NCBI GenBank assembly: GCA_045837725.1
Contig: JBEWZL010000287.1
Location: forward strand, 62,001-126,000
Reading direction: 5' to 3'
From: Vermamoeba vermiformis
Taxonomy: Eukaryota
Length of the DNA stretch: 64,000 nt
Below are positions 5,553-32,301 of this stretch, piece after piece; position 1 is the stretch's first letter; the number at the start of each line of letters is the position of its first letter. The notes under the pieces are model-generated. The model was not told the origin of the DNA. It saw nothing but the letters and a program-made list of their open reading frames with translations, and ran no database searches. The position numbers and the translations under genes were made by a program.

Positions 5553-8500
5553 ATGAGAGGGTGGTTTGGCTTCAAAAGCTGCATCTTCTCGATCCAGCTG
5601 TTAGTCATTGCTCTTAGCTGGGAATTAATAGCTGCGGATAGTACAATAGGGCTAAACCTGACTCCATATAATTTAGTCAATGAAACTACTGTAGTATTCA
5701 ATTACACGGATGGCTCGCCAATCTGCATGGAGCCAGTTTGTGCCAAAAATCAGACCTACTTCGAACATTTTGCATGGTAAATATATAACATAATTATGGT
5801 TAATTTTACCACGAAGAAAATTTGCTAAACTAATTGAAGACACCGAAATACGGATTTGCTATTTAATTTCAACGTGCTTCAATCCTAAATATATACTAAT
5901 CATTATAAATAATAGCTATGATGGTAACGGTAATTGGGGATTTGGTATTAGAACACTCCCGGCTGGCCTTATTGGTCCTGGTTATACGCTGCTAAGAGTA
6001 AGCTAAATCCATTTTCACAATCAACCTTCTAGAACGTTATTTGCATTATTATCATGATAATCGCAGTACATTAATATTAATCAAGCTGTTAAATAATATA
6101 TCACGATTTTATGTTTTAAAATTAACGATATCTTTGCGTGATCTAGGTCAATCTAACGTTATATGGAAAATTCGTTTGGAAAACAAATGATTCAGCCTTA
6201 ATTTCGATACAATTACAAGACGAGCTTATATTTCAAGGCAAATTGCCTCGCGATGGCAAAAACTTGTAAGTGCATCCGTGATCCAAAATTAGATTTTCTG
6301 TTTTGCGATATTAACGAGGCGAGCCCAGTTTATTAACAAATTTAAATACAATACTATGGATATTATCCGATGATATAGTATTTGATTGAATCTCTATTCC
6401 GTGAACGCACAATTTTTAAAATTGGATGTACCTCACGATTCGCTCGATTGTTTTTATTGACTGATAATATTATCTTAGCGAGAATTCATGCGCTAATTGC
6501 GTGTCAAAGTGGTCTATTGAAGTCGATGCAGCAAATTGGATAACTGGATGGGAAGGCTGGAGTCACACCTCGCCAAACAACTTCTACAGCATCGTTGCGG
6601 CGGGTGATATGTGTTTATCTCAAGTAGTATTGAGATTATATTATGCTAAGGGTACGTTACTTTCATCTACAAAGGATATCCGATCCGTTACACACGGAAT
6701 ATTTGTTTTGAAACAATTGTTTATCGAAGTTCAAAATCATTTCTCGAGCCATTATTATATATAATGCACATATTGTGTCTATAATATGGTCATTTACTAT
6801 TTAAAATATGAGAGTGGTTTTAAAGGCCGAAATTATTTTGGAAAAGTCAATCGAGCATTCAAGCTAATTTTTTTTTCTGCATTTCAGCCTTGCCAATAAT
6901 AGAGCACCTGAATCCAACCGGCGGAGCATATTCAGGCGGTACGACATTAAGCCTTACGGGCCACAACTTTGATCCGAGCAAAAACATGAGCTGCCTTTTC
7001 GGAGGCGACATCCGTGTTCCGGCCGTAGTCTCGAGTGATGGCAATAGTATACTATGTACTACACCTCCTCGTAGTGCGTTTAAGAATAGCACTGCATTTG
7101 TGAACATTGATGGCTTTGAAGGCATTGAATTGGATCTGGAAGTCAACGGACTGAGGATCAATACGACACTGTCGTTCTTTTACTATCGTACGTAATATAG
7201 GCATACTTTATATATAGCATTAAGCCGATACCTACTACAAATATCTATAACATTCAATTTGTTTTGAATCAGTAATACACTAAAAAAGTGGATCTAACAC
7301 GCACCTTTACAGCGGATCCGGTCGTCACGAGCATGACTCCAATGTTTTCCAATGCAAATCAGCCCACGTGGGTTACATTCTACGGCACGGGATTTATGTA
7401 CGAAGAGAATTTTGGAATTTATCCTCGATGCAAATTTGGCGACAGAATTGCCACCAACATGACCTTTGTGTAAGTCCAAATTTTTAACTCAGATCTGAAC
7501 CTTTATATCACTACTGCACAAAGTAAGTATACTAATGTTCTATATATTAAGCAACTCGACGCAGTTCATGTGCATGACAATTGCTGGTCCACCCAATGAC
7601 GCACCTGTGTTTGTCTCCTTCAACGGACAACAGTTCACAGAGCTCAATATGACATTTTCATTCGGTAAGTACGACATAGTATATATATTAGATGATATGA
7701 TATGATATGATATCATTACAGTATAATGTACTTTTAGTGTTGGAATTTTGTGGATCTGCATTGATTTTTTGATGTTTGATAGTGACGGGATTCAACAACG
7801 GAGATACATTAGCGTGGGCAATAGTAACCATAGCAGGAGTACTAGTCCTCAGTGGCGTGCTGTTGGTGATTTGTTTGGCTCGCAGAAACAAATACGGACG
7901 TGACATGAGCTTACAGCCACACACGCGACTGGTCAACGAGACGAGTCCTTTGTTGACTGGTAAGTTGATAGAAATGGTTCATTATGCGCGCGTTATACTA
8001 AAGCTGGCATCTATAGACTCGCTACGTGCTATATTGGATATAGATGATTTCTCTAAGGAATTGAAAATCTCCGAGATCCAGTGGGGAAAGCGGATCGGCC
8101 GCGGTAGTTTTGGCGAAGTCTATTTGGTAATTAATACGTTGTTATATATTATTGATAGTGTATTAACATCGTTAATAGGCTACTTGGCGAGGAACTAATG
8201 TCGCCGTCAAAAAATTATCGGTTCATAATTTGAATCGCGAAGTGTTGAAGGAGATCTTCCGAGAAGTTACAATTATGAGGTTAAAAAAGCCCTATTTTAG
8301 TTAAATAACACAATTTAATAATATTTGTTCTTCAGAGGATTGCGCCACCCGAATGTCCTTCAATTTTTGGGTGCGTGTACGGAGCCACCAGATGTGTACA
8401 TTGTGATCGAGTACATGCCAAAGGGCAGTTTGTATCAAATCATTCACGACAAGGTAAGTACTATAATATGGTGTTGTATATATAGGATAATAATAGACTT

Positions 8501-9333
8501 TTTTCAGTCGATCGCTTTGCCGTGGGACAGGATCAAGTCGATCGCGATTGATGCAGCGCGAGGAATGTCTTATTTGCACAATAGTGATCCTATTATTATC
8601 CACCGTGACTTAAAATCTCAGAATTTACTCGTTGACGATAACTGGCGTGTCAAAGGTACGTGCACCGTGACTCGATCCAAGGCACATGTTTGAGCTCACC
8701 TTTCATTCTTTAGTGTGCGATTTTGGTCTCTCAAGAATCTACAAAGACACGCAGTCGACGAAGTTGACAGCTTGTGGCACTCCTTGCTGGACTGGTACGT
8801 GACGTGACACTTTTAACATTTTGACACTTCAAGTTTGACACGCGCAATAATACCAAAACTCTTTTCTCGGCTAATTATGACTAAGTTGAATTATTAGTAG
8901 CATATAAATGCAGTTATTAATGTTATTTGATAGCACCGGAGGTTCTCCGTAGAAATCGATACACGGTCAAAGCGGATGTGTACTCGTTCGGTGTTGTGCT
9001 ATGGGAGATGATTACACGTGAAGAGCCATTCAAGGGCATGCCACCATTCCAGGTCATATTATTAGTTGGCACTCAGGTACGTTTTGATAGACTTTGTGAG
9101 CTGCAACTAGATCGAGATCGGATCGCTGATATTTTTTATCATTAGGGCCAACGACCTGATATTCCTAATTATTGCCCGCCACAATATGCTCAATTAATAG
9201 AAGACTGCTGTAAGTATATAGTAATGTTAGTCGCTAGAGTTGGTTTGGTAACGGATCCCTTATTTCAGGGCAAGAAGATCCGGATAAGCGTCCCAGTTTT
9301 GAAGAAATAATCACTCGACTAGAGTCGTTTTAA
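5553..9333 (+). CDS. Receptor-type TKL protein kinase with signal peptide, IPT/TIG repeats, TM helix and kinase domain
   Basis: Hydrophobic N-terminus, IPT-like [82 protein letters not shown]. Confidence 0.9.
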
Positions 9334-9388
9334 TAATTGTTATTATTATTTTGATGTAAATACCATGTACAGTAAATTACACATTTAT

Positions 9389-10253
9389 TTAATCGTGCCC
9401 CTGTGCCAGGTACTCGTCCCGCAAATCACTCAACTTTACTTTTTTATCTCCTCGTACTACTTTTGCTTCCCATCCGTTCCTCATTGTCTTGCTGCCTTCT
9501 TTTTCCGCTCTGCAAACGTAGGTTACCCACTTTGACGGCGACGAACTGTAGCCTTCTGTGCCTTCTTCGCCAATGTAGCCGCTCACATCCACCCTCGTTT
9601 GATAGTTTCCGTAGACGATGGTATCACCAGCCTTTAGCAAACCTTGCTGGACAAGGTCGCGAATGGTAACGTTTGGAACTCGCTTTCTTTTTCGTTTTCC
9701 GTCTGCTGTCACCACAGAGGTGTCGTGAGAGACTTCTTCATCTGACAAACTCTCTTCAATCTCCTGCTGTAACGAGTCTATAAATATGTTGTGAAAATAT
9801 TTATAATTACCTGAATGAGATCTGTTGAGGTGCTCAGAGGGGCGAGAGGCTGCGCTGACAGATTTTTGGGGTGGAGAGACCGCACGGTGGGAAAATTGAC
9901 CGCACCGGGTGGTGTGAGGCTCACACTAGGTGCTTCGACGAGGCCTATTGTTCGTGGAAATTGGAAGATGTGCGCAGCTCAAACCCTGGGTAAGATAACA
10001 ATTTAGCTCCGGATGTCAACAAAATTTTCATTTAAAAATTTCAAAACAACGGCAAAAATATCGTACCTAATCGAATTGCTTTTAGGATGCAAGCAGATAG
10101 CTCGTCTATTTTTTCTGCAGCTGCGTTGCTAATTCTTTCTGTTGGCTGATTCAAATCCAGCACCGCGTTAAGTTTGGCCCTCAGAGACCGCAGTTGGTCA
10201 ATGCCTGGGTCTATATAATTTTGCAACAGCCTTGAAGTATCGTTCTCTGCCAT
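9389..10253 (-). CDS. RAMA-domain protein (MPND-type RAMA at C-terminus); splicing of the middle exon is uncertain
   Basis: VTIRDLVQQGLLKAGD...SSPSKWVTYVC...NGWE...LSDLRDEY resembles the RAMA consensus. Basic NLS-like KRKRKR. Upstream exon starts MAENDT. Confidence 0.75.
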
Positions 10254-10376
10254 GACCTTGGTAGGTCGATAAGCCCTAATCAGAATTGATAAAGTTGCAA
10301 AGCCTCCCTCAAGTTCAGGGAGGAAATGATAAGAATCTGGCCAATCAGAATCGTTTGGTTTATTCTTGACCAATAG

Positions 10377-13010
10377 GAACAGTTTCAAAACCATGTGCTG
10401 CGGAATTTACACAGCGAGCTGATTAAAAGAAAAGAAGCTGACCAATCCGACCATTCTTCTCCACGTGGTTCGAAATGATAAAAACAAGCCATAAGACAAA
10501 GAAGAAAGAAGGGCCGAAAAAAGGTCTCTCCGTTCCGGACTTTCTCTTGAGAGCACAATTTCCACGAGCTAAGGACGAGCAGAAAGAATGAAAAATCCTC
10601 TTGCAGCGAAGAGGGCGTGGATCAACTGCTCTCTGCGACTTCACGCCGAGCGCGCTTCGCATCTACGACCGAGTTGGTGCCTCCAAAGGAGCTAATAGTA
10701 CTGAGCACTTTAAACAAAACTTTAACAAGAAAGTGATGGACGAGGATTTCCGTGTAATGTTTACGAACATTCACCAAGCGGAGAAATTGGTCGACTTCCT
10801 CAAAGAGGACGGGAACGCCTTCCAGTTCACTCACATCATTATCGATGAGGGTCATCATATTGATGAGAGTAGATTCGGTGCCGTCATAAACCATTTCCGT
10901 AACGCTGAAGTGAGTAGACATTTAAAAATTTAACTGACGATCTGATCTGATCTGTTCAACTTTTCTAGGTGTTTTTGTTCACCGCAACTGAGTTCAAAAT
11001 CAGGTGGACGAAGCCAATTTTAGCGAAAAGAAATCATGGCATGTTCGTCAAGTATGACAGTGACTACAAGCTAGTATTAAAATGTTAATTCATATTGTAA
11101 TTAGGTATCGCATGAGTGAGGCTGTCAACAAAAAGATCCTCAAAAAGCCCGTGCTGCTCGTAAAGAAATTTGAGCAAACCGATGAAGTAAAATTGTGCCT
11201 ACAAGACCAAGCTTTCGGTGGGCTCTCAAACCACAAAAAGAGTTGGCAATCAGTACTTTATTCTCCCACGTACATACGAGCAATGGCTAATGAGGTACTT
11301 TCTCTTCGTCGTTGTGTGACCTTGATCTGATCTCGTTATTTTTCCTCAGATGCTCTTATGCCTTAAGAAACAAATGAAGGACAATCCGACTGCTCGTGCG
11401 GTCTGCAAAGTTGATGGTATCGAGCATTGCATTCGGGTGTACAGAGAGGTCAAGAAATTAATCGATGACTCGCCAGATCCGGATGTCAAAAATTTTATTT
11501 CGATGTAAGTCATGTTTAGAAATTACAATGACAATATTAACGTACTCATAGGCCCTACTACTCGGGTATGCGAAGCAAAAGTGAAGAAAGGAATGGATTT
11601 TCCTTGTCCGAAGAAGAGCGGATCAACTTCAGCGATCGAATGAAGCAATACTTGAACAAGACCAGCGACGAACATCCGTACTCAGTTTTAATCCAGCCTC
11701 GACTCTGCAGTGAGGGCTACGATGATCCGTATATCACGACTGTCGTATTCTTCTCGATGTCCAGCTCGATGTCCGAATTCGTTCAGCTGTGTGGTCGCGG
11801 AACTCGATTTCCTTTTGGGAAATTTGACCCGAATAATCGCTTGTGCTACATTTTAATTCCAGATTTCTTCACTGACCTAGTACGTCAAGTTGCAAAAAAA
11901 AAAAAGTTAACTAATGTTTGCACTTTAGATCGACTACTTTGACAAATGGAGCAAAGACGATGAGATTTACAACATTGCGCGTCTCTCTGAAGACGAAGAT
12001 TTGATAGAAGATGGAGCCGTTGATAAAGACAGAGAGTCTCAGATGCTGTCTGCCACTTTAGAGTCCGAAGACTCAAACCAAATGGTCGTGAACGAAGACA
12101 GCAATTCACAATCACTTGAAGTTAAGACCGATGACGGCAATTGGCAATCCGATGGCTTTGGCTCAAACAATAACAACAACAATACTATGAATAATACCAA
12201 CGTCATGCCTCAACGTGAAGAGAATAAGAGCGAAGAAGAAGAGAGCGATAGCGAGAATAAGAGCCAGTCTCGAAAGGCACGAAGAACTTCCGGCAACTCT
12301 AACGTCGAACGTACGCTTACAAATATCCATCCGAGCTCCGATGCCATCCAATACAAATTCTTCAGTGAATCAGAGGACAACGAAGTCGAGTTACAAATTC
12401 TTAGAAAGGTAAAAATAGTTCGGCGGAAGTGCAATTTACCACAGAAACTAATATCGGTTGTAGGTCGTTGGAGAAACGGCCGTGGCACTCTTGGATACGA
12501 TTGACTATTCACCGAATAACAATAATGTGTCCCCACAACAGCAAGCAAAAGCAAAAAACGAGTCGAGCAAACGAAAGCGTGACAGCCTCGATAAGGATGA
12601 AAATCCGAGCCCAACAAAAAAACAAAAGCTGCCTAAAAATTCCGAGAATTTGCCTAAGAATGTTGACGCCTGGGTAAGACCATTTCGTTATTATATTTCG
12701 AAAGTACTAACCTGATATCAATTAATAGAGAAATTGCCTTGTTTACCATTCTTGCGACAAGGAGAAGAAATTTCCGGGAAGGTTAACAGCGATTGATCTC
12801 AACAAAAACAGCACCTTTAAAATCACATTCGAAGGGCAAGCCAACATTTCGCCGAACAAATTTGTCAGCGCCGTTGCTTCCAAAATTGGAATTTCGCAGA
12901 AGCAAGCGTCGGCCAATGCTGGTTACGAGCGATTTAAAGCCGTTTATGGTGATCAGGAAGTTCCGTTGGATGAGCTAAAGACTTTCTTGTCCAGACCTCA
13001 AGGTGCTTAA
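10377..13010 (+). pseudogene. ResIII/type I-III restriction-like SF2 helicase with C-terminal RAMA-like domain; 5' end damaged
   Basis: Spliced motifs IIIDEGHH (II), FTAT (III), YRMSEAVNKKIL, LCSEGYDDP (V), VQLCGRGTR (VI). Last exon 12729-13010 reads ISPNKFVSAV...AGYE...GDQEVPLDELK. No Walker A found and an in-frame TGA at 10589. Confidence 0.7.
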
Positions 13011-13157
13011 TTGAATCAGACCAATTCATTCGAAATTACTTTTTGAAGTTCGCATTAAGTTGCAGCTTCGAATTTTTTTTTGTCAACATTGTAAATAAAC
13101 TCCGTATTTCATTTATTCTAACATCGGAGCATGATAAAGAGGGACTTTCATATACAT

Positions 13158-14552
13158 CTACGTACGTGAAAACTCCCCAGAATACCCGGACAATCGCACT
13201 TCACTCTCCGTCACAGTGCCCGAGATTGTTGAAGGCTGAACGAACTGACTCCAAGCGCGACACACTTGTCTGCACATTGCACGATCAGTCTTGCCGAAGT
13301 AATCAGCAATCATAGCGACGAGTTCTGGGAGTTGAAGTGCGGACGGTGCTTGTGATTGGTAGATTTCACTCGGAGCTGCCATCGCTATCGTTGTTCGTGG
13401 TCTTGCTTCAGTTTTGTTCTTGAATAGCTTCATTAGCTCAATACGAACGTTCACTGAATCATTTGCAGGTTGGAATAACGAGAACGTGCCACCATATGTT
13501 AATATGACTTCAACTTTTGCTTGATGTTGTTCGAGAGTGAACTTGTAATGAAATGCACCGTGCTTGTAGAGCGTTAAATGCTTTTCTTTTATATTATCTT
13601 CATACGAGTAGCCTTCTCCTGCGTACCAATCCGTATAATGAAACTTTTCTTCGCTTTCTCTATGCAAAAAAGTCACGTGATCATCGTCACCAAAGAGGTT
13701 CGTCCACAAAATTTGATTTACTGACATTGGTGGTACTTGAATAATCTTTGAAAACTTCACGTTGAGTCTTTCAATGTTCATGTTAAACTCGTATCGTGCG
13801 CAAGGAACGAACGAAAAATCTGGATTTTCAATTCCTTTCGTTGTGGATGTAACGATTATTTCTTTGTTATAGTCAATATGATCGCTCGGCTCCAACATTT
13901 TCATGGTTGTGAAATATTCCGTATGAAGGATACTATTTTTGTCGAACGAGATCGCGAATTTTTTTCGCGCGATCATTTCTTCGAGATCCACGGTGCTTTC
14001 CTTTTCAATATCAAAATTTTGCCACATACATTTGACTTCTATAATTGGACCTTCTATTATAATGTCATTTTTGAGAGCTGGATTCTTCACTCGATAATAT
14101 TGTTGGCATTCCATTACTTCATCTATGCTGCCACAAGTTACAATTGAACCAATCGTCCATCTCTTTTCGCCTTTCCTTCGATGTTGTCCAAAAGGTGTCT
14201 CTATATATTTTTCTGGGTAAACGAGTTGCATGCTGGTGATAGAAAGATATTTCGCGATCGGCATCTGAAGTATTTTTGGCCAGCACTTCATTTCACAGTC
14301 AAATTTGTAGTCACTCGATTCAGATCTATATACTATAATATTAACTGTCTTGAGGTCTCCTTTCTTGAAGAAATAAGGAAGATTTTGTTCGCATCCGGAT
14401 TCGTCTCGAAGTTTCCACGACAAGGCATCTCTGTAATGCCGAGCTTCGAACGTGACGATAAAGTATTCGTAGTCTCTTGCCGCTTCTGGCATTTCATACG
14501 AGTGGGTCGTGCGCTTATCGCCCCATCCGCTTTTTAGGTAAACCATCAACAT
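13158..14552 (-). CDS. Uncharacterised 464-aa protein with C-terminal F-box-like motif (paralog 1), intronless CDS
   Basis: Long ORF. C-terminal LQLPELVAMIADYFGKTDRAMCRQVCRAWSQF. Collinear similarity to 15108-16529. Confidence 0.82.
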   Translation of the reverse strand: MLMVYLKSGWGDKRTTHSYEMPEAARDYEYFIVTFEARHYRDALSWKLRDESGCEQNLPYFFKKGDLKTVNIIVYRSESSDYKFDCEMKCWPKILQMPIAKYLSITSMQLVYPEKYIETPFGQHRRKGEKRWTIGSIVTCGSIDEVMECQQYYRVKNPALKNDIIIEGPIIEVKCMWQNFDIEKESTVDLEEMIARKKFAISFDKNSILHTEYFTTMKMLEPSDHIDYNKEIIVTSTTKGIENPDFSFVPCARYEFNMNIERLNVKFSKIIQVPPMSVNQILWTNLFGDDDHVTFLHRESEEKFHYTDWYAGEGYSYEDNIKEKHLTLYKHGAFHYKFTLEQHQAKVEVILTYGGTFSLFQPANDSVNVRIELMKLFKNKTEARPRTTIAMAAPSEIYQSQAPSALQLPELVAMIADYFGKTDRAMCRQVCRAWSQFVQPSTISGTVTESEVRLSGYSGEFSRT

Positions 14553-14776
14553 CCTGAGTCAAAAAAATCAGATTATAATTCGAATGATAACGGCACTAAT
14601 ATATTATTATTTTCTTTCGCACAAAAAGTAAAAAATGAATGAAAAGGGGGTTTAAAAATTAATTTTACAATCTGAAACCGCAAGATTACCTTTGTTTGGT
14701 CTAATAATATACGAAGGAAGCGTTGTAACAATATAATACGTGTCTTGACGTCAACACGTTCAATTTAATGCAAGTA

Positions 14777-15107: not shown

Positions 15108-16529
15108 TTATTGGCGTTCAAGATCAACTCCAAATATGCGTACTGATTTACTCGTAATGGTGCCAGCAATAGTTGGTTGAATTGCTTGACACCACGTTTT
15201 TGACACAAGCCGGCTGCGCTTCAGTTGCTCGTTGTATGAGTTTTTAGCGATGCTTTGGACATCATTGTAAGCGTTATTGACTATTGTTTTAATGACTTCT
15301 GGTAGTTGTAGTAGCTCTGGCATCAACGGTGATAAACTTTTGCTGTCAATTGGCGACAACATTGCAGTTGGTTTAGGCTGAGTTTTGTTCTTACATAGCT
15401 TTAGGAAATCGATTCTTATAATCTCTGAATTCAATCTTGATAGCGCAAAGCTTCCAGCAAAGCTAGAAAGTTTTTCCGGTTGATCCGGACTGAACGGCTG
15501 AGAGTGGAACTTGTAATAAAAAACGCCATTTTTGTACAGCGTTAAATAAGTATTTTCTACTCCTGTTTGGGCCCAGACGCTCGCTCCTGCACGAAAGTCA
15601 GTCCAATGAGTGCCTAGTGTCGAGTTATGTCTATGAAATGTCACGCGATCCGCAGTACCGAAGAGATCCGTCCATAAAATAGTATCAATCGAAGCGACAT
15701 GTGGGACTTGTATCATTTTTGAATATGATATGTTGAGCTTCTCAATACTTAATTTGAGTCTGTAACGTTCTCCCGGTATTAGCACCAGCTCTTGAACTTC
15801 GAGTCCTTGATTGGACTTCACCACAATTTCATTTGCATTATCTGTTGGTAGTTCATACGGTCGTATTGTTGCTGTATATTTTGTATTGTAAAGACTTTTC
15901 TCGTTGAATGAGATTGAGAGATGCTTGTTCACTATGATATCTTCGTAATCAATAAAACAATCTTTGTCGATGTCAAACTTGTCCGACATGCACGTGACTT
16001 CCAAAATAGGACTCTCGATTATAGTGCCATCAATCAACTGATAATAACCTTGACATTCATGAACGGTGTTGAGACTGTCAAAAGTGACAAGCGCTCCGTC
16101 GGCGATTTTCCATTCTTGTTCACCTTTTCTTCGTGTTCGTGTTAGCGGATGCTCATTGCATGTTTCAGACGGTGAAATTTCAATGGTTGTGATGGAGTAG
16201 TACTTCGCGATCGGCAGCTGTAGATCTTTTGGCCAGCATTTCAGTGAACATTCGTATCTGTAGTCACTTTGGCTCTGAGAACCATAAACTATGATAGAGA
16301 ACTTGCTGACATTTAGACGGCGATCGATATCGCCTTGCTTGAAGAAATACGGCAGATCATGGTCGAATCCGGATTTGTCTCGCAGTTTCCAAGACAACGT
16401 ATCCTGATAATGCCGTGCCTCAAACGTGATCATACAATAATAATGTTTTTGGTCCTTATTAGGCAATTCAATTGCGTGAGAGTTGCGAGCACTGCTGCCC
16501 CAACCGCTGGCCAAAGCAGATACGAACAT
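15108..16529 (-). CDS. Uncharacterised 473-aa protein with C-terminal F-box-like motif (paralog 2), intronless CDS
   Basis: Shares SGWG, TFEARHY.D.LSWKLRD.SG, LPYFFK.GD, KCWPK.LQ.PIAKY and ILWT.LFG with paralog 1. C-terminal LQLPEVIKTI...RSRLVSKTWCQAIQP. Confidence 0.82.
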   Translation of the reverse strand: MFVSALASGWGSSARNSHAIELPNKDQKHYYCMITFEARHYQDTLSWKLRDKSGFDHDLPYFFKQGDIDRRLNVSKFSIIVYGSQSQSDYRYECSLKCWPKDLQLPIAKYYSITTIEISPSETCNEHPLTRTRRKGEQEWKIADGALVTFDSLNTVHECQGYYQLIDGTIIESPILEVTCMSDKFDIDKDCFIDYEDIIVNKHLSISFNEKSLYNTKYTATIRPYELPTDNANEIVVKSNQGLEVQELVLIPGERYRLKLSIEKLNISYSKMIQVPHVASIDTILWTDLFGTADRVTFHRHNSTLGTHWTDFRAGASVWAQTGVENTYLTLYKNGVFYYKFHSQPFSPDQPEKLSSFAGSFALSRLNSEIIRIDFLKLCKNKTQPKPTAMLSPIDSKSLSPLMPELLQLPEVIKTIVNNAYNDVQSIAKNSYNEQLKRSRLVSKTWCQAIQPTIAGTITSKSVRIFGVDLERQ

Positions 16530-16643
16530 TTCTATATTAATCGTTAAAAATTTGGAAAATAAATAATAATAATAACAAATAATAAATATCCGTAATTAAT
16601 TAATATTGGTTGAAGCAAATCAATTAATAGCGTTTGTAAAATA

Positions 16644-18933: not shown

Positions 18934-21608
18934 TGTCACAGGGGAAAAACTCCACGACAAAATAAATAAAGTAAAAATTATTCGTGACCCCCTCGTGCCA
19001 TTTTTATTTCAATAGTCAATATAGATATTACTATAATAAACTAATATTGGAGTATATTTAATTTTTGTTTATTTAATTTTACAGGTCAGAATGGGAATCG
19101 TATCTGCCGAAAAAAAATCTCCACGATAACTTTTGCTCATTAACACAGCAAAGGACATCAGTATTATATTGATTATTGCATGTATTAAGTATAATGCGTC
19201 GCTTACTTGTTATTGATGCGGGTGTTGGTCAGATCCTAACCAGATTAAGAGTACGGAACAATGTGCCGGCTTATGATTTTGCTAATAAAAAATGATGTAG
19301 GAAATAACGTGTGTGGCTCATTACTGTTCGAATGATCATGAAATGAACTGGAGCAAAAATCAGGGCTGTTCGCGCGCATAATAAAGTTGATAATTCAAAC
19401 CAAAATTCCGGTTTCGTTGTTTCTAATCCTATCAAATACAATTCGCTTGATGACCACATGTCTTCATCGACATTTATATAATATTTAAATGCATATTTAT
19501 TGTTAGATATCAATTTATGCAATGCAGATGCACGAGACAACAATATTCAAATTAAAATAAATTGGCCACGAATAAAATATTAGGCAAGCAGCTCTACCAC
19601 ACTTTGACGAGCTGTACGTGTTCGAGGTTGCAGATTTTCTCCGGAACAGGCCAGCGACCAGTAGTAAGATGCTGATCGCTTCGTACCAGTAGCGGTAGGT
19701 GCTGGCAATACTGGAGTGGTAATTTTTGTTGGCTCACTGATAGTGATTGTACTAACACGAGGCTTCTTTGTAGGTTGTTTGTCGGGAAGGTCAGCTGCGG
19801 ATGCTTTTCGTTTTTGAGCGCGCTTCTTCTTTGTTGGAGCTGGCTCTTGAAATTCCTTCAGCTGCTTTGGTGCCATATTGTAAGCATCTTCTTTAATCTT
19901 CTCCTTGATCTCATTAATGATTTTGGTAAATGCAGAGCCTTCACGAATGAAAAATGGCTCGATGCGATCAACTTGAACTTGAACAAGTTGTCCTGAATGG
20001 TCACCTGAAACAAAGGTTGCAGTGTACTGATTTTCGCTGAAGGCTTGAACAATCACTGAAGGTATTTTCTTCATTTCTTTTGAAAAATTAGATCGGTGGC
20101 CAAGATCAACTAACACCAAGTCTCCCGATTCATAGACACGGACATTGTTGTTTTTCTCGTGCCGTTTAATCTCTCGACCTGCTTTTTCTTCTGCACAAGC
20201 AACAGCCTCTCGGAGAACTCGTTTGGCATAGTCGATGCGCTTTTGAACTTCGGCATCACCTGCAGCGGTAAGTTAAACAATGTCAACCAATGACTCATAC
20301 TTACCATTAGCATCCATTTTCAGGTACCTAGTCCCTCTGAATACTTCTTGTGGAGTTCGCCCGATTGTAGAGTGGAACGTCGCGTTGTACTTTTCGCAAG
20401 CAGTGATAGCAGCAGCTGACCACTCAGCTCCGAGTTTGCCCCCTATTAGCTTCCTCAAAATGCCCTTGTAGGATGCATTGAGTCGCTCGATTTGACCATT
20501 TGTTTGTGGATGCTTAGGGCGCGAGTGACGAGCTTCGATGTCAAGAAGGCGTAAGTACTCTTTGACGATGTCAGCAATGAATTCCTTTCCGTTGTCACAC
20601 TGTAGGATAGTAGGATAGCCATTTGACGAGAATATTTCATACAGGGCTAGAGTGACTGGTGCAGCGTGCTTTGTTTTGAAAGTTTTGGTCCACGCAAACT
20701 TGGTGCAGCAGTCAACGACAGTCAAGATGTAGCGATCTCCAGTTGTTGGATCACTATGATCCATCTCAGTGAAGTCAATCTCTACCCGCTCAAGTGGTTC
20801 ACGAGCAATGATTGGACGAAGAGGTGGCTTGGGAATATTGCGTCGAGTCTTTATCTGCTGACACCTCTCACACGTGCGACAGTACTCTTCAGCGTCCCCA
20901 TACATTCCATTCCACCACCACTCTCCAGAGAGAGCATAGACAGTGGCATCACGGCCTTCAAAAGTTAGTAACGGTCACTTCCTTTTTTGGATCTTACCGA
21001 GATGAGTCCCAAGTTCTCCTTCACCATGGTATGCACCAATCAGTTCTTCTTTTGTCTGGTAATCAAATTTGCCTTCTACAAACACTTGGCGTAGCCCTGT
21101 GTCTGTATCCACGTTACAATAAATTTGTACCGGATCAAATCTGGATTTATTTACCATTCGGTGAGCGAGGCGGCTTTGTTTTTGTGAACTTAATTTGCTT
21201 ATACAGAATACCATTGATTAATTTATACTTTTTAGAGGCATCCTTCAAGTAGCGACGTGCATGACGATTCTTTTGCCCGCGCAACGAATCTGGCCAGATC
21301 ACATGAGTAGCAAGGTTCAGGGCTACTTGAATGATTGCAACAAGTCCCACCCAGGTATCAATGTCCATTTGTGTTAGTGTGTTGATAAAAATCTCAAAAC
21401 TGGCGGCAAAAATTTCGGCGCGCAATTTTTTTTCGGATCGACCCCAACGGCAACTTTACTAATAAGCAATTAAATGACCTCTGTTTATCATTAAATATTT
21501 CTTTATTGTACATACATTGTATGACATAAATACTAACTGTCACTTTGCCCATAGGACGTGGCCAGATCAAGTTTATAAATTTTATCGTGGAGTTTTTCCC
21601 CTGTGACA
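18934..21608 (-). mobile_element. Ginger/Tdd-like DNA transposon (gypsy-type integrase between TIRs), apparently intact
   Basis: TIR tgtcacaggggaaaaactccacga (24 bp perfect, about 37 bp imperfect) at both ends. TGT...ACA termini. Flanking tttgtt at 18928-18933 and 21609-21614. No RT, gag or LTR. Confidence 0.92.
19580..21368 (-). CDS. Retroviral-like DDE integrase/transposase with three introns
   Basis: Spliced product has a YPYY-like N-terminus, H2C2 finger (YH..THLG..CRTCERCQ), IDFT / DNG / QIER with D35E spacing, and a GPY/F-like C-terminal domain (YESGDLVLV). Introns near 21103-21154, 20956-20997 and 20261-20303. Confidence 0.92.
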
Positions 21609-30589: not shown

Positions 30590-32301
30590 TTATAATTTAC
30601 GTTCGGTTTTGATCGCAGCTAATTCTTCGCGCAACAATTTAGCCAATCTGCTCAAGGCTTCGTCAATATCTGCCTCCGAAGCTGTTGAGAATGCAGCACG
30701 AACATAAGGGGAAGGCTAAACACGAAAATTAATCACTATAATAACGATATGTATTTATTAACTTACCGCGTTATTCGGCGAGAAAACTTTGCCCGGGACC
30801 ATGACGACTTTTGCGGTAATGGCTTTTTCTTTGATTAAATTCTCCGTGTCGGAAATTCCGTTCAATTTGAACCAGATGAACATGCCAGCAGATGGCGGGG
30901 ACCATTCAGCCAATCCGGTCAAATGTTTCTCCGCTGCTTTCAACGTAACATCGCGCTTGTGGCTGTAAAAATCTTTGACTTTTTGAATATGACGCTTGAA
31001 GCCATCAATGCCCCATTGATCCAACAGCTTGTACACGAGCATTTGAGTCAATCCTGACGCGTGCAAATTGGTTGCTTGTTGATGGAACTCGAGTCTGTTG
31101 ATCAATGCTGAGGGGCCTGTTACCCACCCTAATCTCAAGCCAGACGACAATATTTTGCTGACCGAGTCAGTGCGCACGACACGACCGTCCACGTCCATTG
31201 AAAAGAAGCTCTTAAGGTCCGCATCTTCGTTAGCCTCTTGGCCCGGCAGAGGGTTCAATCTGAGGTACCAGTAAGGGTCATCTTCGATGATCAAAAAGTC
31301 GTGCTTTTGAGCGATAGCGTAAATTTTCTCTCTTCGTGCGTTGTTTAAAGTCGCGCCAGATGGATTTTGGCCCGTAGGAATTGTGTATAAAACTTTTGGT
31401 TTGTTAACACCTGGAAATTTCGTTGGAAAATTGTTGAGCAAGGCGTCTAATTCTTCGGGAATAATGCCGTGACCGTCTAATGGCACCTCTATTAATTTGA
31501 GACCCCATGGACGCAATGCGGACAAAGCACCACTAAACAAAAATTAGATCTTGCTCTAAAACACTATAATTATAATTGTCAAATAATACGATTAAATGCC
31601 ATTATAATTTGCAATACTATTGTTATGATTTTGTAGGAATTTTATCGGATCTACTTGCCTGTAGGTTGGGCTTTCCACGAGTAACGGATCATTCTCATCT
31701 AAAAACAGCTCAAATAGCTTAGCAAGACCGTCTTGACTGCCACCAAAAACACAAATCGACCAATCAGCGTCTTGCGCGGGAGGTTTATGATCGTGCTTCA
31801 TTAAATCGCGGAGTTTTGAGACAACTTCGGGGATGCCGGTCTAAAAAGGGATTAGACTCTAACCTCTCGCGCAAATGTTCAAAACAACTTGTATTAATAT
31901 TAAGATAGCGCTACTTACTGAAGGGCTATATTGTAAAGCGAGATCCAGATGGTGTCCTTCAAGTTCGATAGTTTCTCCCGTCTTCAACTTGGCTTGCACG
32001 CTTTGAAAAGGAAATAATTGTGCATTAGGCAAGCCACCTCCTAAACTCAACTGCATAATATTATTAGATTTTTGTAATTAATTGAAGTGATTTCACAACG
32101 GCTAAATTGGAACTCGATCTCGTAAAGCAATTATGCATATTAATTCATTTATATCATTTCCATTAATTATTTTGTAATTACCATGCCGGGAATGCGAAAC
32201 AACGGAGTCAAAGCACGGATGGCGGAGGGTTCACGCTTCAACGCAATGCGCGAGAAGTATTTCGTGTAATTGGTGATTTTAGTGAGTGATTGTGCAGCCA
32301 T
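30590..32301 (-). CDS. AADAT: Kynurenine/alpha-aminoadipate aminotransferase (class I PLP-dependent)
   Basis: REPSAIR, LSLGGGLPN, YTIPTGQNPSG, IIEDDPY, DSVSKILSSGLRLGW (PLP Lys), YVRAAFS. Confidence 0.9.

What the first reader, a model, noticed from the sequence alone, without database searches (positions are those of the whole stretch)
9389..13010. Head-to-head RAMA protein and restriction-type helicase-RAMA fusion: candidate eukaryotic modified-DNA sensing module
Seen in sequence: two divergent intron-containing genes about 125 bp apart. The minus gene ends in a RAMA-like domain (SSPSKWVTYV...NGWEAKVVRGDKKVKLSDLR). The plus gene is an SF2 helicase with ResIII/HsdR-style motifs (DEGHH, FTAT, SEGYDDP, QLCGRGTR). 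Its last exon (12729-13010, a frame missing from the ORF track) encodes a second RAMA-like domain (ISPNKFVSAV...AGYERFKAVYGDQEVPLDELK) that aligns with the first. Established: RAMA domains occur in prokaryotic restriction-modification contexts and in eukaryotic MPND, and are proposed readers of modified DNA such as 6mA. Inference: a co-regulated reader plus translocase pair acting on modified or foreign (e.g. giant-virus or endosymbiont) DNA. I do not recognise this architecture from eukaryotes.
Basis: partly seen in the sequence, partly recalled or inferred. Interest (0 to 1): 0.85.

Follow-up and report, generated by a model that had tools for sequence, protein, structure and literature searches.

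The report
RAMA gene beside P-loop-less helicase relic
A protist genome carries, head to head, a small gene for a RAMA-type DNA-binding protein and a gene built from most of a restriction-type helicase that lacks its ATP-binding loop and ends in a faint RAMA look-alike.

Summary
Both genes are real. The minus gene (exons 10253-10067, 9977-9811, 9766-9392; 242 aa) ends in a true RAMA domain: Pfam 49.1 bits against a cut-off of 35.2, and the best fold matches are MPND and CcrM.

The plus gene has eight exons with GT..AG introns. A 2483-nt transcript contig from a ~97% identical relative has all seven introns removed, including the one before exon 12729-13010. The last exon is therefore spliced to the helicase.

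Helicase motifs II-VI are present. Of the 16 codon differences listed there against the relative, all 16 are synonymous. There is no Walker A: only 'GRGST', which is not conserved in the relative. The first 83 codons evolve neutrally, and an in-frame TGA (10589-10591) closes the frame upstream. An ATP-driven translocase is therefore doubtful.

The 'second RAMA' fails Pfam and the fold search. It does score above chance against bacterial-only RAMA profiles: 9.8 bits, reached by 0 of 5000 shuffles, and second of 304 window ORFs. Only the C-terminal ~28-45 residues align, and hhalign gives 28% probability.

No relatives of either gene were found beyond near-identical strains, so conservation of the pairing could not be tested. 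I rate the interest as moderate.

The parts
9389..9766 (-). Minus gene, last exon including the stop codon (9389-9391). It encodes an acidic patch (EIEESLSDEE), a basic KRKRKR patch and the RAMA domain.
   Evidence: Open frame. Splice model, with the acceptor after TTACAG chosen to keep the frame. This intron (9767-9810) has no transcript support.
9401..9700 (-). RAMA domain of the minus gene.
   Evidence: Pfam PF18755, 49.1 bits against a cut-off of 35.2. Bacterial-only RAMA profiles give 27.5 and 38.9 bits. hhalign gives 97.8% over 90 columns. The five best Foldseek matches are 7ydt, 6pbd and 7ydw, probability 0.99-1.00.
9811..9977 (-). Minus gene, exon 2 (low-complexity linker).
   Evidence: Model. 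The 10067|9977 joint is supported only by 9 loose letters of a 151-nt X7 contig.
10067..10253 (-). Minus gene, exon 1, with the ATG at 10251-10253. The N-terminal part has no known family.
   Evidence: No Pfam family on this exon. An X7 contig covers 10066-10207.
10230..10259 (+). Visible end of a plus-strand 5' exon. It overlaps the minus gene's start codon.
   Evidence: A 151-nt X7 contig joins 10259 to 10376 with GT..AG ends on the + strand. This is one contig at depth 2.2.
10260..10375 (+). Intron in the 5' leader of the plus gene.
   Evidence: Joint 10259->10376, skipping 116 bases, GT..AG.
10589..10591 (+). In-frame TGA that closes the helicase frame upstream. The relative has an in-frame ATG at about this place.
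   Evidence: The 30 loose letters before 10596 read ...E H D M K L N K Q F in the helicase frame.
10592..10843 (+). Fast-evolving N-terminal stretch or leader. It contains 'GRGST' (10613-10627) and the first in-frame ATG (10736).
   Evidence: Of 16 changed codons against the relative, 11 are non-synonymous, including T->I and A->G in and after GRGST. No frame shows a synonymous bias. About 7.3% of letters differ, against about 2% in the core.
10844..11879 (+). Helicase-type core, motifs II-VI. Coding parts are 10844-10909, 10969-11051, 11105-11294, 11350-11504 and 11552-11879. Introns are 10910-10968, 11052-11104, 11295-11349 and 11505-11551.
   Evidence: Pfam ResIII and Helicase_C. All four joints are in the X7 contig. 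Of the 16 listed codon differences at codons 156-388, all 16 are synonymous. The nearest solved structure is HsdR 3h1t, E=0.007.
11929..12673 (+). Linker rich in Ser, Asn, Asp and Glu, with basic patches KRKR (12569-12580) and KKQK (12617-12628). Exons are 11929-12408 and 12464-12673. Introns are 11880-11928 and 12409-12463.
   Evidence: Joints. The 11879|11929 joint is printed one base off because of a synonymous A->G. No Pfam family.
12729..13010 (+). Last exon including the stop codon (13008-13010), after intron 12674-12728. It is an orphan 93-aa domain whose C-terminal part (about 12846-12989) is weakly RAMA-like.
   Evidence: Spliced to the previous exon in X7. No Pfam, NCBIfam or PHROG family. 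Only 2 spurious hits in 1.84 billion representatives. Bacterial RAMA profile: 9.8 bits, reached by 0 of 5000 shuffles. Rank 2 of 304 window ORFs. hhalign 28%. Foldseek found no RAMA in its top 50.

Best explanation
Two resident genes of a short-intron protist are transcribed divergently, and their 5' ends overlap.

Gene 1 (242 aa) is a small protein of nuclear type. It has an N-terminal region of no known family, an acidic patch, a KRKRKR patch and a genuine RAMA domain. It most likely binds double-stranded DNA or nucleosomes through the backbone, as the RAMA domains of MPND and CcrM do (inferred).

Gene 2 has 681 codons in its stop-bounded frame, or about 633 from the first in-frame ATG. It derives from a ResIII/HsdR-like SF2 helicase and keeps motifs II-VI under strong purifying selection (shown). 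It has no P-loop, and the residues before motif II drift neutrally (shown). It continues into an acidic, Asn-rich linker with basic patches. It ends in a 93-aa domain that is probably a degenerate partial copy of a RAMA domain, plausibly duplicated from the neighbour (inferred, about 0.6).

I read gene 2 as a helicase-derived DNA-binding or scaffold protein rather than an ATP-driven translocase. I read the pair as a lineage-specific DNA/chromatin-binding duo whose ligand, modified DNA or not, is unknown.
For: - All seven plus-gene joints sit in one 2483-nt contig of a ~97% identical relative.
- RAMA 1 is supported by Pfam at 49.1 bits, by Foldseek matches to MPND and CcrM at probability 0.99-1.00 and by hhalign at 97.8%.
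- The helicase core matches ResIII (26.9 bits) and Helicase_C (25.5 bits), HsdR 3h1t at E=0.007 and EcoAI R at 20.7 bits.
- Selection on the core: of the 16 listed codon differences at codons 156-388, all 16 are synonymous.
- No P-loop. 'GRGST' is the only Walker-A-like string on the + strand of 9300-10950, and it reads differently in the relative (T->I, A->G).
- In codons 12-83, 11 of 16 changed codons are non-synonymous, and no other frame does better.
- An in-frame TGA lies at 10589-10591.
- Alignment to a complete ResIII helicase (L162) puts our residue 48 at its residue 279. By my reading of its sequence, its GAGKT lies about 110 residues before that.
- RAMA-like tail: Smith-Waterman score against RAMA 1 is 48, reached by 2 of 2000 shuffles.
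- Bacterial-only RAMA profiles give the tail 9.8 bits (0 of 5000 shuffles), 4.8 bits (6 of 2000) and 5.1 bits (14 of 5000).
- The tail ranks second of 304 window ORFs in all three profiles. The register is the same each time: NGW against AGY, LdeLr against LDELK.
Against: - Motifs II, III, V and VI are all intact, which is more usual for an active ATPase than for a dead one.
- The relative's contig has 366 nt upstream of 10596 that did not fit the window, and I could not read them apart from the last 30 letters. The frame is open through those 30 letters, so a longer N-terminus with a P-loop in the relative is not excluded.
- The window's TGA sits beside a run of five A. It could be an assembly error or a strain-specific change.
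- Only single exons could be given to Pfam, the fold tools and the big searches. The full-length protein was never folded.
- RAMA 2 fails every curated threshold. Pfam gives no hit at E<=1. Foldseek finds no RAMA among its top 50, with a model of pLDDT 66. hhalign gives 28% over 28 columns.
- Three RNA runs labelled with the source organism's name laid 0 reads on 9200-13200. That is no test, but it means expression in the source organism itself is not shown.
- The selection estimate rests on one contig of one run whose RNA label is a guess.
Confidence: 0.5

Rival explanations
1. An active module pairs a stand-alone RAMA reader with an ATP-driven restriction-type translocase that carries its own RAMA reader. 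The two are co-regulated and sense or act on modified or foreign DNA, for example 6mA-marked, giant-virus or endosymbiont DNA.
For: - RAMA 1 is genuine.
- In the bacteria sampled, RAMA sits in modification-linked enzymes. Of 7 long RAMA ORFs examined, 5 carry GmrSD type IV restriction domains. Many others have CcrM-like frames of about 365-440 aa (the CcrM reading is inferred from size and from PMC9963953).
- Helicase motifs V-VI are closest to a type I R subunit.
- The genes are divergent with overlapping 5' ends.
- The tail is weakly RAMA-like.
Against: - There is no Walker A, and the N-terminus drifts neutrally.
- No nuclease or methylase partner was seen in the two genes.
- Of the 7 long bacterial RAMA ORFs, none had ResIII or Helicase_C in the part held.
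- 6mA did not change MPND RAMA binding in PMC9963953.
- There is no evidence on co-regulation or on targets.
Confidence: 0.12
2. The helicase is complete and active in life. Its true N-terminal exon or exons, with motifs Q, I and Ia, are missing from this window's copy. The cause would be an assembly error or a strain-specific deletion or frameshift around 10484-10595.
For: - The relative's transcript carries 366 nt before 10596 that fit nowhere in 9200-13200. Its frame is open through the 30 letters seen, with an in-frame ATG where the window has TGA.
- A second X7 contig departs from the window after 10483.
- Motifs II-VI are intact.
Against: - Codons 12-83 are shared by both strains and differ at the neutral rate with mostly non-synonymous changes. 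This stretch is therefore not a constrained RecA1 half in either strain.
- About 330 nt is a plausible length for a diverged 5' leader that merely fails the 95% likeness cut.
- No P-loop-like string lies on the + strand of 9300-10950.
Confidence: 0.18
3. The plus gene is a decaying remnant of a helicase gene that was acquired from a virus or bacterium. It is still transcribed but has no function, and the resemblance of its last exon to RAMA is chance.
For: - The N-terminus is truncated and drifting, and an in-frame stop lies at 10589.
- It is an orphan in every search.
- Its only distant relative found is an intron-less helicase next to a family B DNA polymerase on a metagenome contig.
Against: - All 16 listed codon differences in the core are synonymous.
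- Two in-frame 3-nt indels and seven precise splices are kept in both strains, leaving a 681-codon open frame.
- The RAMA-like score is second of 304 ORFs in three profiles, and 0 of 5000 shuffles reach it in the broadest profile.
Confidence: 0.07

Closest known systems
MPND (animal MPN-domain protein with an N-terminal RAMA domain; PDB 7YDT, 7YDW)
   Same: The minus gene's RAMA model has 7ydt and 7ydw among its five best fold matches. As in MPND, the RAMA domain is flanked by an acidic stretch. PMC9963953 describes acidic regions beside the MPND RAMA domain that modulate DNA and histone binding.
   Different: There is no MPN/JAB deubiquitinase domain. The protein is only 242 aa, and its N-terminal part belongs to no known family.
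CcrM adenine methyltransferase, C-terminal RAMA domain (PDB 6PBD)
   Same: 6pbd is the second-best fold match, probability 1.00. NCBIfam gives a weak CcrM C-terminal hit, E=0.054. The RAMA profiles I built largely from CcrM-sized bacterial frames score the minus gene at 27.5-38.9 bits.
   Different: There is no methyltransferase domain in either gene.
Type I restriction R subunit (HsdR; PDB 3H1T, NCBIfam EcoAI/FtnUII family) and the wider ResIII group of SF2 helicases
   Same: Motifs V-VI (SEGYDDP...SMSEFVQLCGRGTR) align best to 3h1t (E=0.007) and to EcoAI R (20.7 bits). Pfam ResIII covers motifs Ic-II-III.
   Different: - The EcoAI score is far below the family cut-off of 550 bits.
- There is no P-loop and no nuclease domain, and no HsdM/HsdS partner was seen.
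- The gene is eukaryotic, with seven spliceosomal introns.
Bacterial GmrSD-RAMA(-DUF4268) type IV restriction fusions
   Same: RAMA is joined to an enzyme that acts on DNA according to its modification. Of 7 long bacterial RAMA ORFs examined, 5 have GmrSD domains.
   Different: The partner is a GmrSD nuclease, not a helicase. RAMA sits in the middle of the protein, not at the C-terminus. The RAMA domains there are full length.
Complete ResIII helicase beside a family B DNA polymerase on metagenome contig L162 (giant-virus-like by gene content; my inference)
   Same: It shares the exact word EGYDDPYI and motifs II-III and V-VI (BLASTP 2e-5 and 0.004). It was the only relative found among 183 candidate stretches in the metagenome scan.
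   Different: L162's protein is intron-less, 547 aa, has GAGKT and a full ResIII match (profile 3-164 of 164, 81.9 bits), and has no RAMA-like tail.

Membership tests
RAMA (PF18755), minus gene | Score above Pfam's gathering cut-off | tested here: met
   49.1 bits against 35.2, profile positions 9-104 of 107.
RAMA (PF18755), minus gene | Fold like the solved RAMA domains of MPND and CcrM | tested here: met
   The five best Foldseek matches are 7ydt_A, 6pbd_A, 7ydw_B, 7ydw_A and 6pbd_B, probability 0.99-1.00 and E 0.009-0.03. The model is weak (pLDDT 56).
RAMA (PF18755), minus gene | Binds DNA, with or without preference for 6mA | not testable with these tools
   Needs EMSA or a similar assay.
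RAMA (PF18755), plus gene last exon | Score above Pfam's gathering cut-off | tested here: not met
   No Pfam family at E<=1.
RAMA (PF18755), plus gene last exon | Similarity to RAMA profiles beyond chance | tested here: inconclusive
   - Bacterial-only profiles give 9.8 bits (0 of 5000 shuffles), 4.8 bits (6 of 2000) and 5.1 bits (14 of 5000).
- It ranks second of 304 window ORFs.
- hhalign gives probability 28%, P=6e-4, over 28 columns only.
RAMA (PF18755), plus gene last exon | Full domain, including the N-terminal helix and hairpin half | tested here: not met
   Alignments cover only profile positions from about 39-55 onward. Nothing in this or the previous exon matches the N-terminal half.
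RAMA (PF18755), plus gene last exon | RAMA fold | tested here: inconclusive
   A single-sequence model (pLDDT 66) has no RAMA chain among the top 50 Foldseek matches, best E=0.34. The model is too weak to exclude the fold.
SF2 helicase (ResIII + Helicase_C) | Both RecA-like halves recognised | tested here: met
   ResIII scores 26.9 bits (cut-off 22.5) but covers only profile positions 84-153 of 164. Helicase_C scores 25.5 bits (cut-off 23.5).
SF2 helicase (ResIII + Helicase_C) | Motif I (Walker A, GxGK[ST]; consensus recalled, not from a call) | tested here: not met
   Only 'GRGST' at 10613-10627, with no Lys. It changes in the relative, and an in-frame TGA lies 21 nt upstream.
SF2 helicase (ResIII + Helicase_C) | Motifs II, III, V, VI | tested here: met
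   DEGHH, FTAT, SEGYDDP and QLCGRGTR are present. The motif names are assigned from recalled consensus and from the alignments.
Type I restriction R subunit (HsdR) | Family-level score, nuclease domain, and HsdM/HsdS partners | tested here: not met
   EcoAI R scores 20.7 bits against a cut-off of 550. There is no sequence N-terminal of motif II that could hold a nuclease. No methylase or specificity domain is found in either gene. The rest of the window was only sampled.

The most novel reading that the evidence does not exclude
A free-living protist has domesticated parts of a prokaryotic or giant-virus restriction-type system. An HsdR/ResIII-type motor fused to a RAMA-type reader is paired head to head with a stand-alone RAMA reader. 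The native protein, with an N-terminus not visible in this assembly, works as an ATP-driven sensor or effector for adenine-methylated or otherwise foreign DNA. That would be a eukaryotic counterpart of modification-dependent restriction.
Probability: 0.1. Interest if true: 0.75.

Novelty: new variant of a known kind. Interest (0 to 1): 0.36.

Why it matters
RAMA domains are the main candidate readers of DNA adenine methylation in eukaryotes, but their ligand is disputed. The eukaryotic fusions listed in the passage I read of Iyer et al. (PMC4738411) are chromatin and ubiquitin domains, not helicases.

A helicase-derived protein with a RAMA-like tail next to a RAMA-only gene would add a new context for this domain. 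It would also give a natural pair of diverged RAMA modules for testing what RAMA actually recognises.

The clear boundary between a neutrally drifting N-terminus and a strongly constrained motif II-VI core is an instructive case. It shows a helicase fold kept without its ATP-binding loop.

The limits are serious. Both genes are orphans, the pairing cannot yet be shown to be conserved, and no activity is known.

Tried and rejected
**Searches that found nothing useful**
- Exhaustive HMMER search of the last exon against 1.84 billion representatives gave 2 hits at E<=0.001. Both are repeat proteins matched in 4-6 stretches, so I take them as spurious.
- Word-based homologue searches, 3 of 3 used:
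  - Helicase exon 5 against longer proteins: 36 candidates, none scored.
  - RAMA exon at similar lengths: only P0003, 98% identical, 108 aa.
  - RAMA exon against longer proteins: 508 candidates, none scored.
- ESM Atlas gave no usable hit for the last exon. For exon 5 it gave generic Helicase_C fragments.
- Viral contig scans with helicase exon 5 and with the RAMA exon: 6 and 18 pattern matches, no relative.
- Bacterial/archaeal genome scan with the RAMA exon: 213 pattern matches, no relative.
- The PDB sequence search with the RAMA exon gave nothing meaningful.
- Earlier findings of this scan: nothing on this genome and nothing similar. The word search gave only unrelated cases.
- No whole genome is held for this window, so paralogues and synteny could not be sought. 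tblastn of the spliced plus protein against the window found no second copy.

**RNA and run data**
- RNA raw reads X21-X23, labelled with the source organism's name, laid 0 reads on 9200-13200. This is no test of expression.
I draw no conclusion on habitat or range from them.

**Structure and ideas set aside**
- The AlphaFold2 model of the last exon plus Foldseek found no RAMA, but the model is weak.
- 'GRGST' as a working Walker A: rejected, because it has no Lys and is not conserved.
- Another reading frame or a hidden intron in 10596-10840: rejected, because no frame shows synonymous bias and the other two contain stops.
- I tried to align the relative's 30 letters before 10596 with the window. 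The alignment is ambiguous. I say only that the relative has an in-frame ATG where the window has TGA.
- Complex prediction was not run. I do not claim that the two proteins bind each other.
Full report
**What kind of sequence this is.** The window is eukaryotic. It is about 40% G+C. Its genes are broken by short GT..AG introns of 47-59 nt, and it has no tRNA genes. No whole genome is held for it. Upstream of the finding lies an intron-rich protein kinase gene (PK_Tyr_Ser-Thr, 70.8 bits).

**The minus gene.** From the open frames and the splice signals I built a three-exon model: 10253-10067, 9977-9811 and 9766-9392, with the stop at 9389-9391. It gives 242 aa.
- The first joint (10067|9977) is supported by 9 loose letters of a 151-nt contig of run X7. 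The second intron is supported by frame logic only.
- The last exon holds a RAMA domain: Pfam PF18755, 49.1 bits against a cut-off of 35.2, profile positions 9-104 of 107.
- A single-sequence AlphaFold2 model of residues 60-178 of that exon is poor (pLDDT 56). Even so, its five best Foldseek matches in the PDB are mouse MPND (7ydt, 7ydw) and CcrM (6pbd), with probability 0.99-1.00 and E 0.009-0.03. The sixth match drops to E=0.86.
- RAMA profiles that I built from bacterial sequences alone score it at 27.5 and 38.9 bits. hhalign gives 97.8% over 90 columns.
- Just before the domain lie an acidic patch and KRKRKR. The N-terminal 120 residues match no Pfam family.
- A 108-aa protein from a public assembly (P0003) is 98% identical and differs at one residue inside the shared part.

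**The plus gene: structure and expression.** From the stop-bounded frame starting at 10592, eight exons with canonical GT..AG borders give an open frame of 681 codons. The exons are 10592-10909, 10969-11051, 11105-11294, 11350-11504, 11552-11879, 11929-12408, 12464-12673 and 12729-13010.
- I laid four runs on 9200-13200.
- The three raw-read RNA runs that carry the source organism's label gave 0 reads, which the tool itself calls no test.
- Run X7 is from another organism label, and its RNA status is a guess. It holds a 2483-nt contig about 97% identical to the window in which all seven introns are missing at exactly these borders.
- The joint at 11879|11929 is printed one base off. The relative has a synonymous A->G at the last base of that exon.
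- The joint 12673|12729 ties the last exon to the helicase.
- Two 3-nt indels (at 10621 and 12081) keep the frame.

**Helicase nature.**
- Pfam finds ResIII on exon 1 (26.9 bits, cut-off 22.5) and Helicase_C on exon 5 (25.5 bits, cut-off 23.5).
- The nearest solved sequence for motifs V-VI is a type I R subunit (3h1t, E=0.007). NCBIfam's EcoAI R model gives 20.7 bits against a cut-off of 550. PHROG 16, 'DNA helicase', gives 23.9 bits.
- 'Restriction-type' is therefore a fair description of a weak resemblance, not a family assignment.

**The missing P-loop.** The ResIII match covers only profile positions 84-153 of 164.
- On the + strand of 9300-10950 the only Walker-A-like string is GRGST at 10613-10627, which lacks the lysine.
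- The frame is closed 21 nt upstream by TGA at 10589-10591. The same frame further up (10442-10588) is a Lys-rich peptide with no P-loop.
- A metagenome contig, L162, was the one relative among 183 candidate stretches. It carries a complete, intron-less 547-aa ResIII helicase beside a family B DNA polymerase.
- BLASTP aligns our residues 48-113 with its residues 279-339 and our motifs V-VI with its 479-515. By my reading of its sequence, its GAGKT lies about 110 residues before 279. Our protein has only 47 residues there.

**Selection pattern.** One search listed 40 of 66 differences between the X7 contig and the window. All 40 lie at 10626-12132. I classified them on my gene model.

| Codons | Changed codons | Non-synonymous | Synonymous |
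|---|---|---|---|
| 12-83 | 16 | 11 | 5 |
| 156-388 (motif III to past motif VI) | 16 | 0 | 16 |
| 417-426 (linker) | 5 | 3 | 2 |

- The non-synonymous changes in codons 12-83 include T->I and A->G in and just after GRGST.
- By the counts per piece, one difference in 11105-11292 is not listed. The piece 10969-11051 was not shown.
- Twenty-six differences were not shown, among them those of the last two exons. I therefore cannot classify changes in the RAMA-like exon.
- Difference density is 23 of 314 letters in 10596-10909. It is 3-7 per piece (about 2%) in the core, and 17 of 354 in the last exon plus 3' UTR.
- No other reading frame of 10596-10840 shows a synonymous bias: 6 of 17 and 2 of 16 changed codons, and both frames contain stops.

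The core is thus under strong purifying selection. Everything before motif II drifts as neutral sequence would. The functional protein therefore starts shortly before DEGHH, and the first in-frame ATG is at 10736. An SF2 fold without motifs Q, I and Ia cannot bind ATP in the usual way (established knowledge of the superfamily, recalled).

**A caveat on the 5' end.** The X7 contig has 366 nt before 10596 that fit nowhere in the laid stretch. The last 30 read, in the helicase frame...E H D M K L N K Q F, followed by LLQRRGRGS.... The relative therefore has an in-frame ATG where the window has TGA, and its frame is open at least four codons further up. The 366 nt may be a 5' leader too diverged for the 95% cut, or may hold more coding sequence. 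I could not read them. The neutral drift of the shared codons 12-83 argues against a constrained RecA1 half in either strain. Still, I give the 'complete helicase, N-terminus not seen' reading 0.18.

**Arrangement of the two genes.** Another 151-nt X7 contig joins 10259 to 10376 with GT..AG on the + strand, after 30 letters at 10230-10259. The plus transcript therefore begins inside the minus gene's first exon and has a 116-nt leader intron. The genes overlap at their 5' ends rather than lying 125 bp apart. This rests on one contig at depth 2.2.

**The 'second RAMA'.**

Evidence against:
- No Pfam hit at E<=1, and no NCBIfam or PHROG family.
- BLASTP against the first RAMA finds only an unrelated 17-residue match, E=0.52.
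- No relative in 1.84 billion representatives, only two repeat-protein artefacts. No Atlas hit.
- A pLDDT-66 model has no RAMA chain among its top 50 Foldseek matches.

Evidence for:
- A Smith-Waterman alignment with the neighbour's RAMA scores 48. Shuffles average 24.3 (sd 4.3), and 2 of 2000 reach 48. With softer gap costs the score is 61 and 0 of 2000 reach it.
- For an independent test I collected RAMA matches from bacterial genomes with the genome search.
  - Searches gave 44 loci. I dropped 3 (two with stops and one cut at a contig end), leaving 41.
  - Searches gave 40 loci. I dropped 7 with stops and 3 from genomes flagged as unpublished, leaving 30.
- I built HMMs without any window sequence and scored the exon with all filters off.
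  - The 71-sequence profile gives 9.8 bits. None of 5000 shuffles reaches it; the best shuffle scores 8.1.
  - The 41-sequence profile gives 4.8 bits, reached by 6 of 2000 shuffles.
  - A 30-sequence 'SPS-type' subset gives 5.1 bits, reached by 14 of 5000 shuffles.
- Among all 304 stop-to-stop ORFs of at least 60 aa in the window, the exon ranks second after the true RAMA exon in all three profiles: 9.6 against 4.1 for the next, 4.9 against 2.4, and 4.6 against 3.8.
- The register is always the same: NGW against AGY, and LdeLr against LDELK.
- hhalign gives probability 28% and P=6e-4 over 28 columns.

Only the C-terminal third to half of the domain aligns. The N-terminal helix and hairpin half has no counterpart. 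I conclude that the exon is probably (about 0.6) a degenerate, partial RAMA derivative, plausibly copied from the neighbour. It does not qualify as a family member by any curated test.

**Context from bacteria and the literature.**
- Of 7 long bacterial RAMA frames that I scanned (the parts held, about +/-1.5 kb), 5 carry GmrSD type IV restriction domains. One has a CBS domain and one has RAMA only. None has ResIII or Helicase_C. One further long frame (871 aa) had no locus and was not examined.
- In the passages I read of Iyer et al. (PMC4738411), the eukaryotic RAMA fusions are JAB peptidase, DAM, ankyrin, SET, PHD, Chromo, Tudor, Bromo, BRCT, ARID, MBD, PARP finger, AT-hook and RING. The prokaryotic fusions include nucleases, methylases and McrB-like AAA+. 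No SF2 helicase is named there.
- In the passages I read of the MPND structure paper (PMC9963953), the CcrM C-terminal domain is called a RAMA domain. Both solved RAMA domains contact the DNA backbone. 6mA did not change MPND binding. Acidic regions beside the domain tune DNA and histone binding.
- Searches for 'RAMA domain' (11 papers hold the term, 9 listed) and one search showed no title on a helicase-RAMA protein. I read only the two papers named.

**Verdict.** The functional reading is not supported. The 'translocase' lacks its ATP loop, the 'second reader' is a faint partial relic, and the ligand of RAMA is itself uncertain. The most likely picture is a lineage-specific pair of DNA/chromatin-binding proteins, one of them a helicase-derived scaffold kept under selection. 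It is a new variant of known kinds, of moderate interest. Its main value is as a test bed for what RAMA modules bind and as an example of a constrained helicase core without a P-loop.

Noticed in passing
window 13158-14558 (-) and 15108-16595 (-): Two large intron-less open frames (466 and 495 aa) directly downstream are tandem paralogues, 40% identical (E=5e-117). Neither has a Pfam family above its cut-off; the first has only a sub-threshold IFNGR1_transm match (21.5 bits against 27.5).
   Followed up: partly
window 19580-20974 (-): Retroelement remnant. One frame has an integrase zinc-binding domain and an rve core (49.1 bits). The adjoining 230-aa frame has no family.
   Followed up: partly
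window 7773-9334 (+): Intron-rich protein kinase gene (PK_Tyr_Ser-Thr 70.8 and 47.4 bits on two exons). It ends about 55 bp before the stop codon of the RAMA gene, so the two genes are tail to tail.
   Followed up: partly
window 30758-31543 (-): Exon of a class I/II aminotransferase (Aminotran_1_2, 48.9 bits).
   Followed up: no
window 10230-10483 (+): The relative's plus-strand transcript starts inside the minus gene's first exon and has a 116-nt leader intron (10260-10375). After 10483 that contig departs from the window. The leader also holds a 9-codon upstream ORF (ATG at 10394).
   Followed up: partly
L162:1-4696: This metagenome contig has a family B DNA polymerase (minus strand), a complete intron-less 547-aa ResIII helicase with a Cys-rich insert between motifs I and II, and a 232-aa ORF with no family. 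By gene content it looks like a large DNA virus. That is my inference and was not tested.
   Followed up: partly
L165, L175, L185, L186, L199: Bacterial GmrSD_N-GmrSD_C-RAMA fusions, three of them followed by DUF4268. Here RAMA sits inside modification-dependent type IV restriction enzymes.
   Followed up: partly
window 9200-13200, runs X21-X23: Three RNA runs that carry the source organism's label, each with about 13 million reads read, laid no read at all on 4 kb that includes the end of a kinase gene. Either these genes are silent there or the runs hold a different strain or organism.
   Followed up: no
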